From the UHGV virus genome UHGV-0179013: a stretch of 42,129 bases of DNA; one strand, written 5' to 3'. Below the pieces are notes generated by a model. The model searched no databases. It was not told the origin of the DNA and saw nothing but the letters and a program-made list of their open reading frames with translations. Position 1 is the first letter of the stretch; each line of letters begins with the position of its first letter. Positions 32,535-37,706 of this stretch are shown here, in pieces. Made by a program: the position numbers and the translations under genes. This DNA is from a virus.

Positions 32535-33379
32535 GCGGCACCTGCCAACTCTTTGTCGTGGGTAAATTCACCTTTCCAGCGCTTCTTCATCGGAAGATGC
32601 CCCTTGAGATAGTGTCGGTAAATCCATACCGCGCCTTTGCGCAGAAGGATCGGTTTGAATGTGTCACGCATCTCGCCGTCGTCCTGTTCTACTTGACCAG
32701 AACGCTCACTGAGGTAGAGATCGCGTGCATAGTGATGAACCCGCCAGCGCGGATATTTAGCCTTTGGCTGGTCGTCGTAGAGCCAGTTATGTTCGAACAA
32801 AAACGCATTAACCTGCTGGACGTTGACGCCGTTCAGCTGCTTACAGAACTGGCAAGGAGACATACCCGGCTGAAAGAGGTTTTCCAGGTGCTCGATGTAC
32901 TTTGCCTGTCGCTCGACGTATCCAAGCGCACGCCGGGCAGCTTCACGTTCGTCAGCCCATGCACGCGCAGCAGCCACCTCATCTGAGAAATCAGGCAGAT
33001 CTGAGTTAACCGCCACCAGCTTACCTGTGCGAAAGTCGAGGAAGGTCTGATTCACCTGCAAGCGGAATACTGGTGAGATCCACCCGGCATACTCAATGGC
33101 CAGCAGTTCGTGAGCGAAAGTGCCGCCATTCCTGCCTTCGTCTGAAACTATGCAAATCTGCACAGTTTCTTTTTCCAGCTCAGCGATTAGCGATTTAGCA
33201 GTTTGAGTGCGCAACCACTGGGCAGGGGCTTTGTTAGCACCAAGCCCACTCGCCTTGTGCAAAGCATTCAGGTTAAAACGCCCCTCAGCATCGGTAGTGA
33301 TTTCCACACCTGCAATAACAGGTAGGCTTTCAGCACCATTACTTGAATTATTCAGATGTTTATTGATATTATTTTTCAC
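32531..33379 (-). CDS. KilA-N domain protein with C-terminal ANT-like antirepressor domain
   Basis: 282 aa; N-terminal VIAGVEITTDAEGRFNLNALHKASG pattern of KilA-N domains; C-terminal region typical of phage antirepressor C-domains. Confidence 0.6.
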   Translation of the reverse strand: MKNNINKHLNNSSNGAESLPVIAGVEITTDAEGRFNLNALHKASGLGANKAPAQWLRTQTAKSLIAELEKETVQICIVSDEGRNGGTFAHELLAIEYAGWISPVFRLQVNQTFLDFRTGKLVAVNSDLPDFSDEVAAARAWADEREAARRALGYVERQAKYIEHLENLFQPGMSPCQFCKQLNGVNVQQVNAFLFEHNWLYDDQPKAKYPRWRVHHYARDLYLSERSGQVEQDDGEMRDTFKPILLRKGAVWIYRHYLKGHLPMKKRWKGEFTHDKELAGAA

Positions 33380-33690
33380 GAATTTACCTCGCCAGGTAGA
33401 TTTATGCAGGTATGAACAGTAGTGAAGTTAGAAAAGGCCGGTGAGGGAACCCATTCTCTTTCCGGCCTTTTTCTTGCCGTCTCTCCGATCTGCTGTTGTC
33501 GTCTGACCTTTAGCCCACTGGCGCGCGTAGTGAAGACAATCGTCATACGCCCTGCCTTTACGGGTTGCCTGCGACATCCGGCGGTAGTGGTCAACGCCGA
33601 TCTGCCCCCCCCCTGACACACCTGCTCAGAAAATCCCTCGGACGCCAGCTGCGCGGCAATATTCTTGCGAATAAAATCTACCGGATTCAT
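33376..33690 (-). CDS. Small early protein in cII position, reading frame ambiguous across a G9 homopolymer
   Basis: ATG at 33690 behind GGAGG RBS; the N-terminal 29 codons run into G9 (33605-33613), where a second frame (ORF 33428-33619) opens; as-is frame ends at an ATGA overlap with the KilA-N gene. Confidence 0.4.
   Translation of the reverse strand: MNPVDFIRKNIAAQLASEGFSEQVCQGGGRSALTTTAGCRRQPVKAGRMTIVFTTRASGLKVRRQQQIGETARKRPEREWVPSPAFSNFTTVHTCINLPGEVNS
33434..33475 (+). terminator. Plus-strand intrinsic terminator antisense to the early operon (oop-like antisense RNA 3' end)
   Basis: Roughly 15-bp interrupted stem (AAGGCCGG ... CCGGCCTT with inner GAGGGAA/TTCTCTT pairing) followed by TTTTTCTT on the plus strand; no plus-strand gene ends here. 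Confidence 0.45.
33605..33613. repeat. Homopolymer tract (C9 on plus strand, G9 in the coding strand) at a reading-frame junction
   Basis: Nine consecutive C at 33605-33613; a +1 nt change would fuse the ATG-initiated N-terminus to the alternative downstream frame. Confidence 0.9.
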
Positions 33691-36010: not shown

Positions 36011-36307
36011 ATGCAAATGAATATTATCGTCAGAAATGAAGTCGTGAATAACAAAGCCCATCCAGCCAATCAGGATGACGACATTCTTTACATAAACAAA
36101 GCCCACAAAACAGCAGAGTGTGCCAATAAATATGCACATGAACTCCGTGCTGAATTTACCCAGTTGCTTATGCCAGCAATCACACGCACTGATGTGAAGG
36201 TAGCGGGAAGATTCACCTCATTACTTAATGAGCTTTGCTTCATGACAAAAATGACGATGGAGAACACCTCAAAGGGGGGGGGCAATAATGACGTTTCTGA
36301 AAGATAA
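36011..36307 (+). CDS. Hypothetical early protein (98 aa)
   Basis: ATG behind GAGGA RBS; AT-rich. Confidence 0.4.
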   Translation: MQMNIIVRNEVVNNKAHPANQDDDILYINKAHKTAECANKYAHELRAEFTQLLMPAITRTDVKVAGRFTSLLNELCFMTKMTMENTSKGGGNNDVSER

Positions 36308-36400
36308 AGCAGCACACAAGACAGCAAAACTTTTCGCCTCTTATGGAAATAGTTATCTGCATATTGCAAACCTTTTTCTGCGCAAGGCTTACGGGCGGTA

Positions 36401-36763
36401 GTGACAATGAAAAACAACATCATTGAAATTTATCGCCGCCGCATTGCTATTGCGACATTAAACCGAATGAAGCGCAAGACAGGAGGTTATTGTCTCTCCG
36501 TAAATATGCCCGATGACAATATTCAGGTTATCGAGATTAACGAAGAATCAATGCTGAAACTTTTGCTGCGCTTCGAAAAACAGGCTCGGACTGAATTCAA
36601 CACAGAAGCGGAAACATTTCTTCGCCAGACGTATATGAAAAGCGTCGATATCAATGGACACACCGAATATCTGACCGAAACCGGAAAGATGATTGTTGAC
36701 GAGATTTTTGCGGAATTAATTAAACACGCGAAAGAGAAATACGTATGTGGAGGAATTAACTGA
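36401..36763 (+). CDS. Hypothetical early protein (120 aa)
   Basis: ORF in early-left operon; stop overlaps next ATG (TGATG). Confidence 0.4.
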   Translation: MTMKNNIIEIYRRRIAIATLNRMKRKTGGYCLSVNMPDDNIQVIEINEESMLKLLLRFEKQARTEFNTEAETFLRQTYMKSVDINGHTEYLTETGKMIVDEIFAELIKHAKEKYVCGGIN

Positions 36764-37013
36764 TGGCCTCACAACAAACAATTATTCACGGAATGCAGAT
36801 CCCCCCCCAGTCCTCAACGTGGATCTGCATGTGCTTCCGGATTTCACCGGACGCGTGGTTCTTTACATCGAAAAAGGGCGTGTGACATGCGACCGCCGGC
36901 TGCTCGACGACGAACATATTTGCGCACTGGACACTTTTATCGAAATGGCCCGCGAAGCCGGGTTACGTATACAGGAGCTAACTGGTGGCACTGACAGCAA
37001 TTCGAATACCTGA
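36763..37013 (+). CDS. Hypothetical early protein whose ATG-initiated frame and long ORF are separated by a C8 homopolymer (frameshift or sequencing error or phase-variable)
   Basis: ATG at 36763 coupled to upstream stop; after C8 (36801-36808) this frame stops after 39 codons, whereas a +1 C would join it to the 88-codon ORF 36747-37013, which itself has only a GTG start. Confidence 0.3.
36801..36808. repeat. Homopolymer tract C8 at a reading-frame junction
   Basis: Eight consecutive C at 36801-36808. Confidence 0.9.
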
Positions 37014-37199
37014 ACGCGTACACCTGCAGGCGATGCAGGTCCTGCTGCGATACCGACGGAAGCGAGTATATGCACGACGTATGCGACGCACCGGATTTCT
37101 CAGTCTGAAGGTTAATCCGCGCTGGCGGATGCTATCGAAAGACAATGGCCGCAATTGGGAAGTAATGAGTCATAAAACGTATAACGGAGAATTAAAACG

Positions 37200-37706
37200 A
37201 TGAGTACCAACAAAAACGACAACGTAAAGCAGCTAGTTGCCCGACTGAAAGAAATGCAGGAGCAGTCCGGTACGCACATCCCCGCGTGGATGCTCGATGA
37301 AAATCGTTACGGCAAAGGTGCTCTGACAACTGAAGAACAGCATGAATGGGCTGAAACCGTTTGTCACTCCATGCGCGGAACTGTCGCCCTGCTTTACCTG
37401 ATTGAATGCGAAAAGCGCTGGGGACTTCGTGACGGTGAGTATCAGTTTAAAACCGGTGAGTTTGTTTTTGGCTTAACGCGGCAGCTTATCGAGAACCTGC
37501 TTATTGAACACGTAGAAGGCGCACTGATCGAGAAAAAACCGCAGGAGCGATATCTGGCTGTATTCCAGTTCTACTCCGCCAACGATCAGCGCCTGAAAGA
37601 AGACGGTCATTCGTGGTTCAGCGGTTTTCTCGACGAGATGTTTATGGATCTTGCTGTTCGGTTACGTGTCGGCGAAGCAATACCCGTTCAACACATTTTG
37701 CACTGA
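37200..37706 (+). CDS. Hypothetical early protein (168 aa)
   Basis: Long ORF in early-left operon; no recognisable motif. Confidence 0.45.
   Translation: MSTNKNDNVKQLVARLKEMQEQSGTHIPAWMLDENRYGKGALTTEEQHEWAETVCHSMRGTVALLYLIECEKRWGLRDGEYQFKTGEFVFGLTRQLIENLLIEHVEGALIEKKPQERYLAVFQFYSANDQRLKEDGHSWFSGFLDEMFMDLAVRLRVGEAIPVQHILH

What the first reader, a model, noticed from the sequence alone, without database searches (positions are those of the whole stretch)
36747..37013. C8 homopolymer separates an ATG-initiated start from an 88-codon ORF in the early-left operon
The ATG at 36763 is translationally coupled to the upstream gene (TGATG) but reaches a stop 39 codons later. The long ORF 36747-37013 is in the other frame and has only a GTG start. 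One extra C in the C8 tract at 36801-36808 would produce a single coupled 82-aa protein. This is the same signature as the G9 tract, so either a systematic homopolymer under-call or a pair of contingency loci.
Basis: seen in the sequence. Interest (0 to 1): 0.4.

Follow-up and report, generated by a model that had tools for sequence, protein, structure and literature searches.

The report
Unstable poly-C run breaks phage gene
A run of eight C's has lost one base and so splits a small, conserved early gene of a Citrobacter-type temperate phage; the same run is 6 to 12 C's long (up to 15 inferred from proteins) in related prophages, so this is a real, recurrent and reversible frameshift at a mutational hot spot, not a sequencing error or a special decoding signal.

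Summary
C8 lies at 36801-36808. ATG 36763 overlaps the upstream stop (TGATG), has a GGAGG Shine-Dalgarno, and stops after 40 codons. The 88-codon GTG ORF is in the -1 frame. One extra C gives an 83-aa protein (not 82), which is the normal single-ORF form of family phrog_340. C8 is not an under-call: two independent assemblies match the window exactly over 6.3 kb, and the exact 88-aa ORF is on at least 24 contigs in several prophage backbones. Among 26 related loci the run is C6 (1), C8 (6), C9 (11), C10 (7) or interrupted (1). Loci with identical flanks differ in run length. Every complete out-of-frame allele keeps the start codon and an intact downstream frame, which is under purifying selection (pN/pS about 0.16). 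One sublineage repaired a C8 allele with a 7-nt tandem duplication. The G9 run (36274) and a third run (33605) behave the same way and also break conserved genes. Best reading: a genuine OFF allele at a slippage-prone coding homopolymer, reversible over evolutionary time and perhaps slightly leaky. Programmed recoding and an evolved contingency function are not supported. Protein function remains unknown. Interest is modest.

The parts
36801..36808 (+). C8 homopolymer: the frameshift site, one base shorter than the in-frame C9
   Evidence: Read directly. Relatives carry C6, C8, C9, C10 and C12 at the same place.
36763..36885 (+). ATG-initiated reading frame. Codons 1-13 are the true N-terminus (MASQQTIIHGMQI). 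After the tract it runs out of frame to TGA 36883-36885 (40 aa).
   Evidence: The N-terminus is identical to that of the intact C9 allele in L008.
36809..37013 (+). True C-terminal coding region (VLNVDLHVLPDFTGRV...SNSNT, 67 codons plus stop), holding the conserved core domain of the family. [quoted passage not shown]
   Evidence: It is intact in all complete OFF alleles. pN/pS is about 0.16. The core is conserved in distant homologs.
36747..37013 (+). 88-codon GTG ORF as gene callers report it. Its first 18 codons (36747-36800) are out-of-frame read-through of the real N-terminal region and of the end of the upstream gene.
   Evidence: The same 'MEELTD...' calls appear in databases. The GTG overlaps the Shine-Dalgarno of the ATG.
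36749..36753 (+). GGAGG Shine-Dalgarno for ATG 36763, with a 9-nt spacer
   Evidence: Read.
36407..36763 (+). Upstream early gene (118 aa from ATG 36407; phrog_1737). Its TGA overlaps the ATG of the split gene.
36985..37203 (+). Downstream gene: a 72-aa ParE-like toxin-domain protein (PF24732, phrog_1525). Its GTG start lies inside the 3' end of the split gene.
36793..36830 (+). Perfect 10-bp inverted repeat ATGCAGATCC / GGATCTGCAT that brackets the tract, so the tract starts in the 5' arm and runs into the loop
   Evidence: fold and coordinates read. Not significant on its own; role unknown.
36274..36282 (+). G9 homopolymer splitting a second early gene (ORF 36011-36307 plus ORF 36288-36401). 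G8 or G11 would be in frame.
33605..33613 (-). G9 on the minus strand (C9 on plus) splitting a third conserved gene (33690..33376 N-terminal part, 33619..33428 C-terminal part; phrog_4439). G10 would be in frame.

Best explanation
The window carries a genuine one-base-short (C8) allele of a small, translationally coupled early-operon gene of a lambdoid temperate phage from Citrobacter or its relatives (family phrog_340, function unknown). The Pro-Pro-Pro codons CCC CCC CCA, preceded by ATC, form a C9 run. DNA polymerase slips on this run during replication (inferred mechanism), so lineages gain and lose C's. C6, C9 and C12 are in frame (ON); C7, C8, C10 and C11 are out of frame (OFF). In the window, ribosomes start at ATG 36763, read 15 correct residues, shift into a nonsense frame at the tract and stop after 40 residues. 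The conserved core domain encoded downstream is therefore essentially not made. Because the tract mutates far faster than ordinary sites, OFF alleles are young and can revert or be repaired. That is why their downstream frame is still intact and still looks selected. The most economical reading is a mutational hot spot held in mutation-selection balance, in a gene that is silent in lysogens and selected only when the phage grows. An evolved switch is not required. A trace of full-length product (order 0.1-0.3%) is plausible because the zero-frame heptamer C_CCC_CCC is intrinsically -1 shift-prone in E. coli; this is inferred, not shown. The G9 and the minus-strand G9 in the same 3.2-kb early region are the same phenomenon in two other genes.
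For: Sequence and frames. The single-ORF architecture is the norm: L001 C9 gives 83 aa and Fels-1 without a homopolymer gives 78 aa; phrog_340 matches residues 8-83; the I-P-x-P motif and the N-terminus are conserved. The allele is real: L029 and L034 are 100% identical to the window over 6,267 bp with C8 and G9; the exact 88-aa ORF is in 56 index blocks, with 24 contigs read, in at least 3 backbones; other C8 alleles are on 114, 22 and 16 contigs. Hypermutability: the census gives C6 x1, C8 x6, C9 x11, C10 x7 and interrupted x1. Loci with 0 differences in 605 bp of flank carry C10/C9/C10; 1 difference goes with C8/C6; 4 differences separate window C8 from L008 C9. Four haplotypes identical over 180 nt hold mixed lengths, requiring at least 5 events. 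The gene is maintained: 12 of 12 complete OFF alleles keep the ATG and an intact downstream frame. pN/pS is 0.16 overall, 0.155 for OFF-OFF and 0.18 for ON-ON, and variable sites split 12/7/35 by codon position. Second-site repair: C8 plus a 7-nt tandem duplication CCTCAAC gives an in-frame 85-aa form that is on 75 contigs; C8 plus AAGTC gives the in-frame I-P-P-Q form. Origin: the I-P-R-P allele reads ATC CCC CGC CCC, one substitution from a homopolymer. Background: indel rate is exponential in run length, and 8-bp G.C runs are outliers and hot spots in E. coli (PMC8510543). C_CCC_CCC is among the efficient -1 heptamers, and the best motifs reach about 0.3% without a stimulator (PMC4066793).
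Against: No read-level data were available, so heterogeneity within one culture and the real switching rate are unknown. Within a clone the state looks stable: 11 contigs carry the identical third-tract ORF, and seven loci of one backbone are all C8. Switching is therefore slow compared with classical phase variation. Some of the public C8/C9/C10 calls could individually be assembly errors. The in-frame fraction (13 of 26) is only weakly above the one third expected without selection (about P=0.06, and the loci are not independent). Leaky frameshifting is inferred from reporter data in another sequence context. The protein's function, and hence the cost of the OFF state, is unknown.
Confidence: 0.75

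Rival explanations
1. Evolved contingency locus. The poly-C tract, together with the G tracts in two neighbouring early genes, is maintained by selection as a stochastic ON/OFF switch. A lysogen or phage population then always holds variants with different sets of early accessory genes, as a bet-hedge against host defences, superinfection or toxicity.
For: Three independently varying tracts lie within 3.2 kb of the early region. All four ON/OFF combinations of the C and G tracts occur. OFF alleles are intact and the gene is under purifying selection. Tract lengths centre on the in-frame C9 with symmetric +/-1 states. The tract has persisted across haplotypes with pS of about 0.15-0.2.
Against: There is no sign that the tract itself is preserved. 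It arises from one substitution in a variable codon (I-P-x-P, with x mostly Arg). Close relatives often carry interrupted versions (I-P-T-P, I-P-S-P, I-P-L-P, I-H-P-Q, and the synonymous CCACCCCCA). Lineages escaped by second-site repair. For the G-tract gene the in-frame fraction is about one third, as expected without selection (10 of 28). The count of long G/C runs is not significantly above random (P=0.08). States are stable within clones. The genes are repressed in lysogens, so switching has no phenotype there (inference).
Confidence: 0.17
2. Programmed recoding. The C8 arrangement is the functional form, and full-length protein is made by -1 ribosomal frameshifting on C_CCC_CCC, or by RNA-polymerase slippage on the C run, giving a fixed ratio of a 40-aa and an 83-aa product.
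For: The zero-frame heptamer at 36801-36807 is C_CCC_CCC, listed among the efficient -1 motifs in E. coli (PMC4066793). Homopolymers of 8 or more are typical transcriptional-realignment sites (PMC3711429). C8 alleles are common.
Against: The out-of-frame arrangement is not conserved. Most of the family has one ORF and no homopolymer. C9 is the modal length, and C10 (which needs the opposite shift) is as common as C8. There is no stimulatory hairpin at 5-9 nt; folding z-scores are -0.76 and -0.14, and the only strong stem includes the slip site itself. Without stimulators even the best heptamers give about 0.3%. E. coli RNAP slippage is documented for A/T runs (PMC6260861; PMC3711429). Lineages that fixed C8 restored the frame at the DNA level, which would be unnecessary if decoding rescued it.
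Confidence: 0.05
3. Sequencing or assembly artefact. The true sequence is C9, and the window's C8 (and G9) are homopolymer miscalls.
For: Long G/C homopolymers are error-prone on several platforms. All three runs of 8 or more in the window are frame-breaking.
Against: Two independent assemblies, one of them a MEGAHIT-style short-read metagenome contig, are identical to the window over 6,267 bp including both tracts. The exact 88-aa ORF is on at least 24 contigs from NCBI, ENA and Logan, and the third-tract ORF is on 11. The three tracts need +1, -1/+2 and +1/-2, so there is no single error direction. A C8 allele was compensated by a 7-nt duplication and spread, which proves that C8 exists in nature.
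Confidence: 0.03
4. Two genuine separate small genes: a 40-aa ATG peptide and an 88-aa GTG protein.
For: Gene callers and NCBI annotate the 88-aa GTG ORF as a protein in many genomes.
Against: The GTG overlaps the Shine-Dalgarno of the ATG and has no good ribosome-binding site of its own. Its first 18 codons are not conserved as protein outside C8 alleles; they are the out-of-frame reading of a conserved N-terminus. The 40-aa sequence is absent from a collection of 15 billion proteins. Relatives do not conserve separate ORFs.
Confidence: 0.01

Closest known systems
Slipped-strand-mispairing phase-variable genes with intragenic poly-G/C tracts (contingency loci of Neisseria, Haemophilus, Campylobacter and Bordetella; type III mod 'phasevarions'; the Bifidobacterium breve pilus poly-G switch, PMC9187656; B. 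pertussis homopolymeric tracts, PMC1891110)
   Same: A G/C homopolymer of 8 or more lies inside an ORF. Changes of +/-1 nt toggle the reading frame. Several lengths occur among near-identical strains. OFF alleles are otherwise intact. Several such tracts lie in one genome region.
   Different: The host family is Enterobacteriaceae, with active mismatch repair and few such loci. The tracts are short (8-10) and stable within clones. The genes are repressed phage early accessory genes of unknown function, not surface or restriction-modification genes. No within-culture switching or selective benefit has been shown. The tract is frequently lost or interrupted in relatives.
Herpes simplex virus thymidine-kinase G-run 'savior indel' with low-level compensatory frameshifting (reviewed in PMC5009743)
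   Same: A viral gene is knocked out of frame by a +/-1 change in a G/C homopolymer, and the run itself allows a trace of frame-restoring decoding.
   Different: Leaky expression here is only inferred from heptamer reporter data. No selective agent is known that would favour the indel.
Programmed -1 ribosomal frameshift sites of phages and IS elements (lambda G/GT, dnaX, IS911/IS3) and programmed transcriptional realignment (IS elements, Shigella mxiE)
   Same: Two overlapping frames are joined at a slippery run. The heptamer C_CCC_CCC is shift-prone in E. coli (PMC4066793).
   Different: There is no conserved out-of-frame architecture, no stimulator and no fixed tract length. In-frame alleles predominate, and frame repair occurs at the DNA level.
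Homopolymer frameshift pseudogenes in prophages and recently decayed genes (for example those PGAP flags as 'frameshifted')
   Same: A single-base indel in a run, a truncated product, and inconsistent annotation as a shorter or alternative-start protein.
   Different: The downstream frame shows no decay (pN/pS is the same in OFF and ON alleles), and the same site has changed independently many times in both directions.

Membership tests
phrog_340 (small phage protein of unknown function) | Significant full-length match to the family HMM | tested here: met
   The repaired 83-aa product scores 6.2e-27, residues 8-83 against profile positions 4-79 of 85. There are 328 homologs with E<=1e-3 and 62 representatives at 50% identity.
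Slipped-strand (SSM) phase-variable / contingency locus | Simple-sequence repeat inside the ORF or promoter whose unit changes alter expression | tested here: met
   The C8 lies 13 codons into the ORF, and +/-1 C changes the frame.
Slipped-strand (SSM) phase-variable / contingency locus | Repeat-length polymorphism among closely related strains, in both directions | tested here: met
   C6, C8, C9, C10 and C12 were seen at the DNA level. Loci with identical flanks carry different lengths, implying at least 5 independent events.
Slipped-strand (SSM) phase-variable / contingency locus | OFF alleles otherwise intact, so the change is reversible and not decay | tested here: met
   12 of 12 complete OFF alleles are intact. 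OFF-OFF pN/pS is 0.155.
Slipped-strand (SSM) phase-variable / contingency locus | High-frequency reversible switching within a clonal population | not testable with these tools
   No reads or cultures were available. Indirectly, the states look stable within clones.
Slipped-strand (SSM) phase-variable / contingency locus | The repeat is maintained by selection, or there is a phenotype with adaptive value | tested here: inconclusive
   One of three synonymous tract positions varies, against about 2 expected (P about 0.27, from the counts). Many interrupted relatives exist. The function is unknown.
Programmed -1 ribosomal frameshift site | Slippery heptamer X_XXY_YYZ in the zero frame | tested here: met
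   AT[C CCC CCC] CAG at 36801-36807 in the ATG frame. The motif is rated efficient in E. coli (PMC4066793).
Programmed -1 ribosomal frameshift site | The out-of-frame two-ORF arrangement and the slip site are conserved in homologs | tested here: not met
   Most homologs have a single ORF without a homopolymer. C9 is the mode and C10 is as frequent as C8.
Programmed -1 ribosomal frameshift site | Stimulatory element: a downstream structure at 5-9 nt or an upstream SD-like sequence | tested here: not met
   No suitably placed structure was found. Folding z-scores are -0.76 and -0.14, and the 10-bp stem includes the slip site.
Programmed transcriptional realignment | A conserved slippery homopolymer (A/T runs for bacterial RNAP) with a fixed out-of-frame arrangement | tested here: not met
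   This is a C run, not A/T, its length is not fixed, and the arrangement is not conserved (PMC6260861; PMC3711429).
Toxin-antitoxin pair with the downstream ParE-like gene | Obligate co-occurrence of the two genes | tested here: not met
   Fels-1 and the 76-78-aa variants have a different downstream gene. In L003 an only distantly similar 69-aa protein (24% identity) precedes the ParE-like gene.

The most novel reading that the evidence does not exclude
The three independently varying G/C tracts clustered around the immunity region (33605, 36274 and 36801) could form a phage-borne multi-locus contingency system. It would generate up to eight heritable expression states of early accessory genes in an enterobacterial temperate phage. 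Low-level -1/+1 decoding on the Pro-codon run could make the OFF states leaky and not null. This would be bet-hedging by a virus in a host family thought to lack simple-repeat contingency loci.
Probability: 0.13. Interest if true: 0.65.

Novelty: new member of a known kind. Interest (0 to 1): 0.33.

Why it matters
Practically, databases hold hundreds of mis-annotated 'MEELTD...' 88-aa, 64-aa and 75-aa proteins that are really frameshift alleles of one 83-aa gene. Annotation pipelines and pangenome counts treat them as different genes. Biologically, the locus is a clean natural example in Enterobacteriaceae prophages of a coding homopolymer in mutation-selection balance. It shows recurrent +/-1 changes, intact OFF alleles, and two kinds of second-site repair (a 7-nt duplication and an added A). 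If the switching proved fast or selected, it would extend simple-repeat phase variation to temperate-phage early genes of enteric bacteria. As it stands, it is an ordinary mechanism in a new place.

Tried and rejected
1. Function of the protein: Pfam gave no hit. A PDB sequence-profile search gave only E of about 0.6. The first AlphaFold model was poor (pLDDT 50). A second model built on a deeper alignment was good (pLDDT 85.5), but Foldseek against PDB (best E 2.4) and BFVD (best E 0.1, an uncharacterised protein) gave nothing usable.
2. Antitoxin idea for the downstream ParE-like gene: rejected, because the two genes do not co-occur consistently.
3. Frameshift-stimulating RNA structure: none found at the right spacing.
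4. Enrichment of long G/C runs in the window: not significant against mononucleotide shuffles. A first version of that script timed out.
5. Third-tract polymorphism in relatives: two DNA patterns found nothing in viral contigs. Only the identical lineage was recovered, so length variation at that tract is unshown.
6. Test for selective preservation of the tract at synonymous positions: inconclusive.
7. Literature search for a prior description of this locus: none found.

Full report
OBSERVATION

The sequence is as described. A run of eight C's occupies 36801-36808. ATG 36763 overlaps the TGA of the upstream gene (cTGATGg). A GGAGG lies at 36749-36753, nine bases upstream of the ATG. The ATG frame reads MASQQTIIHGMQIPPQSSTW... 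and stops after 40 codons (36763..36885). The 88-codon ORF 36747..37013 starts at a GTG and lies in the -1 frame. That GTG overlaps the Shine-Dalgarno that serves the ATG, so it is not a credible start.

WHAT THE GENE IS

The window is the early region of a lambdoid temperate phage or prophage. HTH repressor-like genes lie upstream, and BRO/KilA-N, excisionase and integrase lie downstream on the same strand. 'Early-left operon' is therefore a fair analogy.

- The nearest annotated relative, an E. coli prophage 92% identical (L001), has C9 at the same place and one coupled 83-aa ORF, MASQQTIMHGMQIPPPVLNVDL....
- Salmonella phage Fels-1 has no homopolymer (ATC CCA CTA CCA) and one coupled 78-aa ORF.
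- The repaired product matches phrog_340 (unknown function) over residues 8-83.
- It has 328 homologs, almost all 76-85 aa, in Citrobacter, Enterobacter, Salmonella, Klebsiella and E. coli.
- Their alignment shows a conserved I-P-x-P-V-L-N motif in which x is usually Arg. The homopolymer exists only where x is Pro encoded by CCC.
- An I-P-R-P allele reads ATC CCC CGC CCC, one substitution away from a homopolymer.
- The conserved core of the wider family (62 representatives at 50% identity) lies entirely downstream of the tract.
- No function could be assigned. Pfam, PDB sequence search and fold searches with a confident model (pLDDT 85.5) were all negative.
- The downstream neighbour is a ParE-like toxin-domain protein, but the two genes do not co-occur consistently. 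A toxin-antitoxin reading is therefore rejected.

IS C8 REAL?

Yes. The evidence is as follows.

- The window's exact 88-aa ORF is in public collections under Citrobacter accessions. It is indexed in 56 blocks, and 24 contigs were read.
- Two independent assemblies are 100% identical to the window over 6,267 bp, including C8 and G9. They are an ENA short-read metagenome contig (L029) and NCBI GCA_032477135.1 (L034).
- Seven further loci from a different backbone (about 96.7% identical, with a different immunity region) also carry C8.
- Other, mutually diverged C8 alleles sit on 114, 22 and 16 contigs.
- A uniform under-call cannot explain the window, because its three long G/C runs need +1, -1/+2 and +1/-2 respectively to restore frame.

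THE TRACT IS HYPERMUTABLE IN NATURE

A pattern search that allowed any tract length retrieved relatives from genome, viral and metagenome collections. Counting the window, 26 loci share the 21-mer after the tract:

| Tract state | Loci | Frame |
|---|---|---|
| C6 | 1 | in frame |
| C8 | 6 | out of frame |
| C9 | 11 | in frame |
| C10 | 7 | out of frame |
| Interrupted, CCACCCCCA (synonymous) | 1 | in frame |

- C12 was seen in L044. Protein calls imply C7, C11, C13 and C15.
- Loci with zero differences in 605 bp of flanking sequence carry C10, C9 and C10 (L009, L021, L022). A pair with one difference carries C8 and C6. The window (C8) and L008 (C9) differ at four sites.
- Four haplotypes identical over 180 nt each contain mixed lengths, which requires at least five independent changes.
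- This fits established mutational behaviour. Indel rates rise exponentially with run length, and 8-bp G.C runs are outliers and hot spots in E. coli (PMC8510543).

THE GENE IS MAINTAINED

- All 12 complete out-of-frame alleles keep the ATG and an uninterrupted downstream frame.
- The downstream 180 nt has pN/pS of about 0.16. Of its 54 variable sites, 35 are at third codon positions. OFF-OFF comparisons (0.155) are indistinguishable from ON-ON (0.18).
- The frameshifts are therefore young relative to haplotype divergence.
- One sublineage carries C8 followed by a 7-nt tandem duplication (CCTCAAC CCTCAAC). The net change is +6 nt and gives an in-frame 85-aa protein...IPPQSSTLNVDL.... That form is on 75 contigs, and its tract has gone on varying (L037 has C7 plus the duplication).
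- Another common form is C8 followed by AAGTC, giving in-frame I-P-P-Q. This is either a substitution in a C9 or an inserted A in a C8.
- These DNA-level repairs argue that a C8 allele is not adequately rescued by decoding.

RECODING

- The zero-frame heptamer is C_CCC_CCC. Sharma et al. list it among the efficient -1 motifs in E. coli, but even the best motifs give only about 0.3% without stimulators (PMC4066793).
- No structure lies at stimulator spacing. Folding energies are no better than shuffles. The one strong stem is a perfect 10-bp inverted repeat, 36793-36802 / 36821-36830, and it contains the slip site itself.
- The out-of-frame arrangement is not conserved, and C10, which would need the opposite shift, is as common as C8.
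- Bacterial RNA-polymerase slippage is documented for A/T runs (PMC6260861; PMC3711429).
- I conclude that any trans-frame product is a low-level leak and not a programme. The herpesvirus TK G-run case (PMC5009743) is the nearest analogue.

THE OTHER TRACTS

- The G9 at 36274-36282 splits ORF 36011-36307 from ORF 36288-36401.
- Relatives have G7-G11, with an adjacent A run of 3, 5 or 7. G8 gives an intact 126-aa gene (L030, L031).
- By total length, 10 of 28 loci are in frame, about the one third expected without selection on frame.
- A third run, C9 on the plus strand at 33605-33613, splits a minus-strand gene. Its G10 reading matches phrog_4439 end to end (4.8e-29) and aligns continuously to other phages.
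- The window's broken form of that third gene is on 11 contigs. Length variation at this tract could not be shown.
- Three long G/C runs is not a significant excess over random sequence (P=0.08).

INTERPRETATION

Shown:
- The allele is real.
- The single-ORF form is ancestral.
- Length changes are recurrent and go in both directions.
- OFF alleles are intact.
- The downstream frame is under purifying selection.
- Second-site repair has occurred.

Inferred:
- Replication slippage is the mechanism.
- The C-terminal domain is lost in the window.
- There is a small decoding leak.
- The polymorphism is a mutation-selection balance in a gene that is silent during lysogeny.

Not shown:
- Switching within a culture.
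- Any adaptive benefit.

The evidence leans against an evolved contingency function. The tract arises by one substitution in a variable codon, it is often interrupted in close relatives, the states are stable within clones, and the G-tract gene shows a random in-frame fraction.

VERDICT

- The under-call alternative is rejected.
- The contingency-locus alternative is supported only in the weak sense of natural frame-switching polymorphism.
- This is a new member of a known kind and of modest interest. It has a practical consequence for annotation, because many database 'proteins' of 88, 75 and 64 aa are frameshift alleles of one 83-aa gene.

Noticed in passing
window 36274-36282 (with ORFs 36011-36307 and 36288-36401): A G9 run splits a second early gene. 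Relatives carry G7-G11, and the adjacent A run also varies (A3, A5, A7). G8 gives an intact 126-aa gene (L030, L031). By total length, 10 of 28 loci are in frame. This gene has no PHROG or Pfam match.
   Followed up: yes
window 33605-33613, minus-strand ORFs 33690..33376 and 33619..33428: A third long run (G9 on the coding strand) splits a conserved small gene. The G10 reading matches phrog_4439 over positions 1-73 of 74 and aligns continuously in Elizabethkingia, Serratia and Yersinia phages. The broken form is on 11 contigs. Length polymorphism in relatives could not be demonstrated.
   Followed up: partly
L038 179-219 (-), L039 3733-3773 (+), L037 1501-1773: A sublineage repaired a C8 allele with a 7-nt tandem duplication (CCTCAAC x2) directly after the tract, giving an 85-aa in-frame protein found on 75 contigs. 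The tract continues to vary in that background (C7 seen; C10, C11 and C13 inferred from proteins).
   Followed up: yes
window 36793-36802 and 36821-36830: A perfect 10-bp inverted repeat (ATGCAGATCC / GGATCTGCAT) brackets the poly-C tract. Eight of the ten pairs persist in Fels-1, but the arms encode conserved M-Q-I and D-L-H, so there is no covariation evidence. It might favour hairpin-assisted replication slippage; this is untested.
   Followed up: partly
window 36985-37203: A 72-aa ParE-like toxin-domain protein (PF24732, 9e-18; phrog_1525) starts at a GTG inside the last 29 nt of the split gene. The shared C-terminal tail ...SNSNT / ...SNTNS also ends a distantly similar 69-aa protein in L003 (24% identity). 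This suggests a recombination-module boundary inside the overlap.
   Followed up: partly
L001 1641-2621 and 3902-4323: In the E. coli relative an IS5 transposase is inserted into the homolog of the G-tract gene (near window position 36069). A further neighbouring gene is annotated 'frameshifted', so this early region accumulates disruptions in several ways.
   Followed up: no
proteins P0199 and P0223: Distant homologs of the core domain are fused to a DnaG-type CHC2 zinc ribbon (P0199) or to a Bro-N domain (P0223). This is the only hint, and a weak one, that the domain works with DNA-associated phage proteins.
   Followed up: no
public protein collections: Frameshift alleles of this one gene are deposited as distinct proteins: 88-92 aa 'MEELTD...' (C7, C8, C10, C11 or C13 depending on subfamily), 74-75 aa 'MECRSPP...' (C7, C10) and 64 aa 'MDLHVLPDF...'. 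Several have RefSeq WP_ accessions, which inflates apparent gene diversity.
   Followed up: partly
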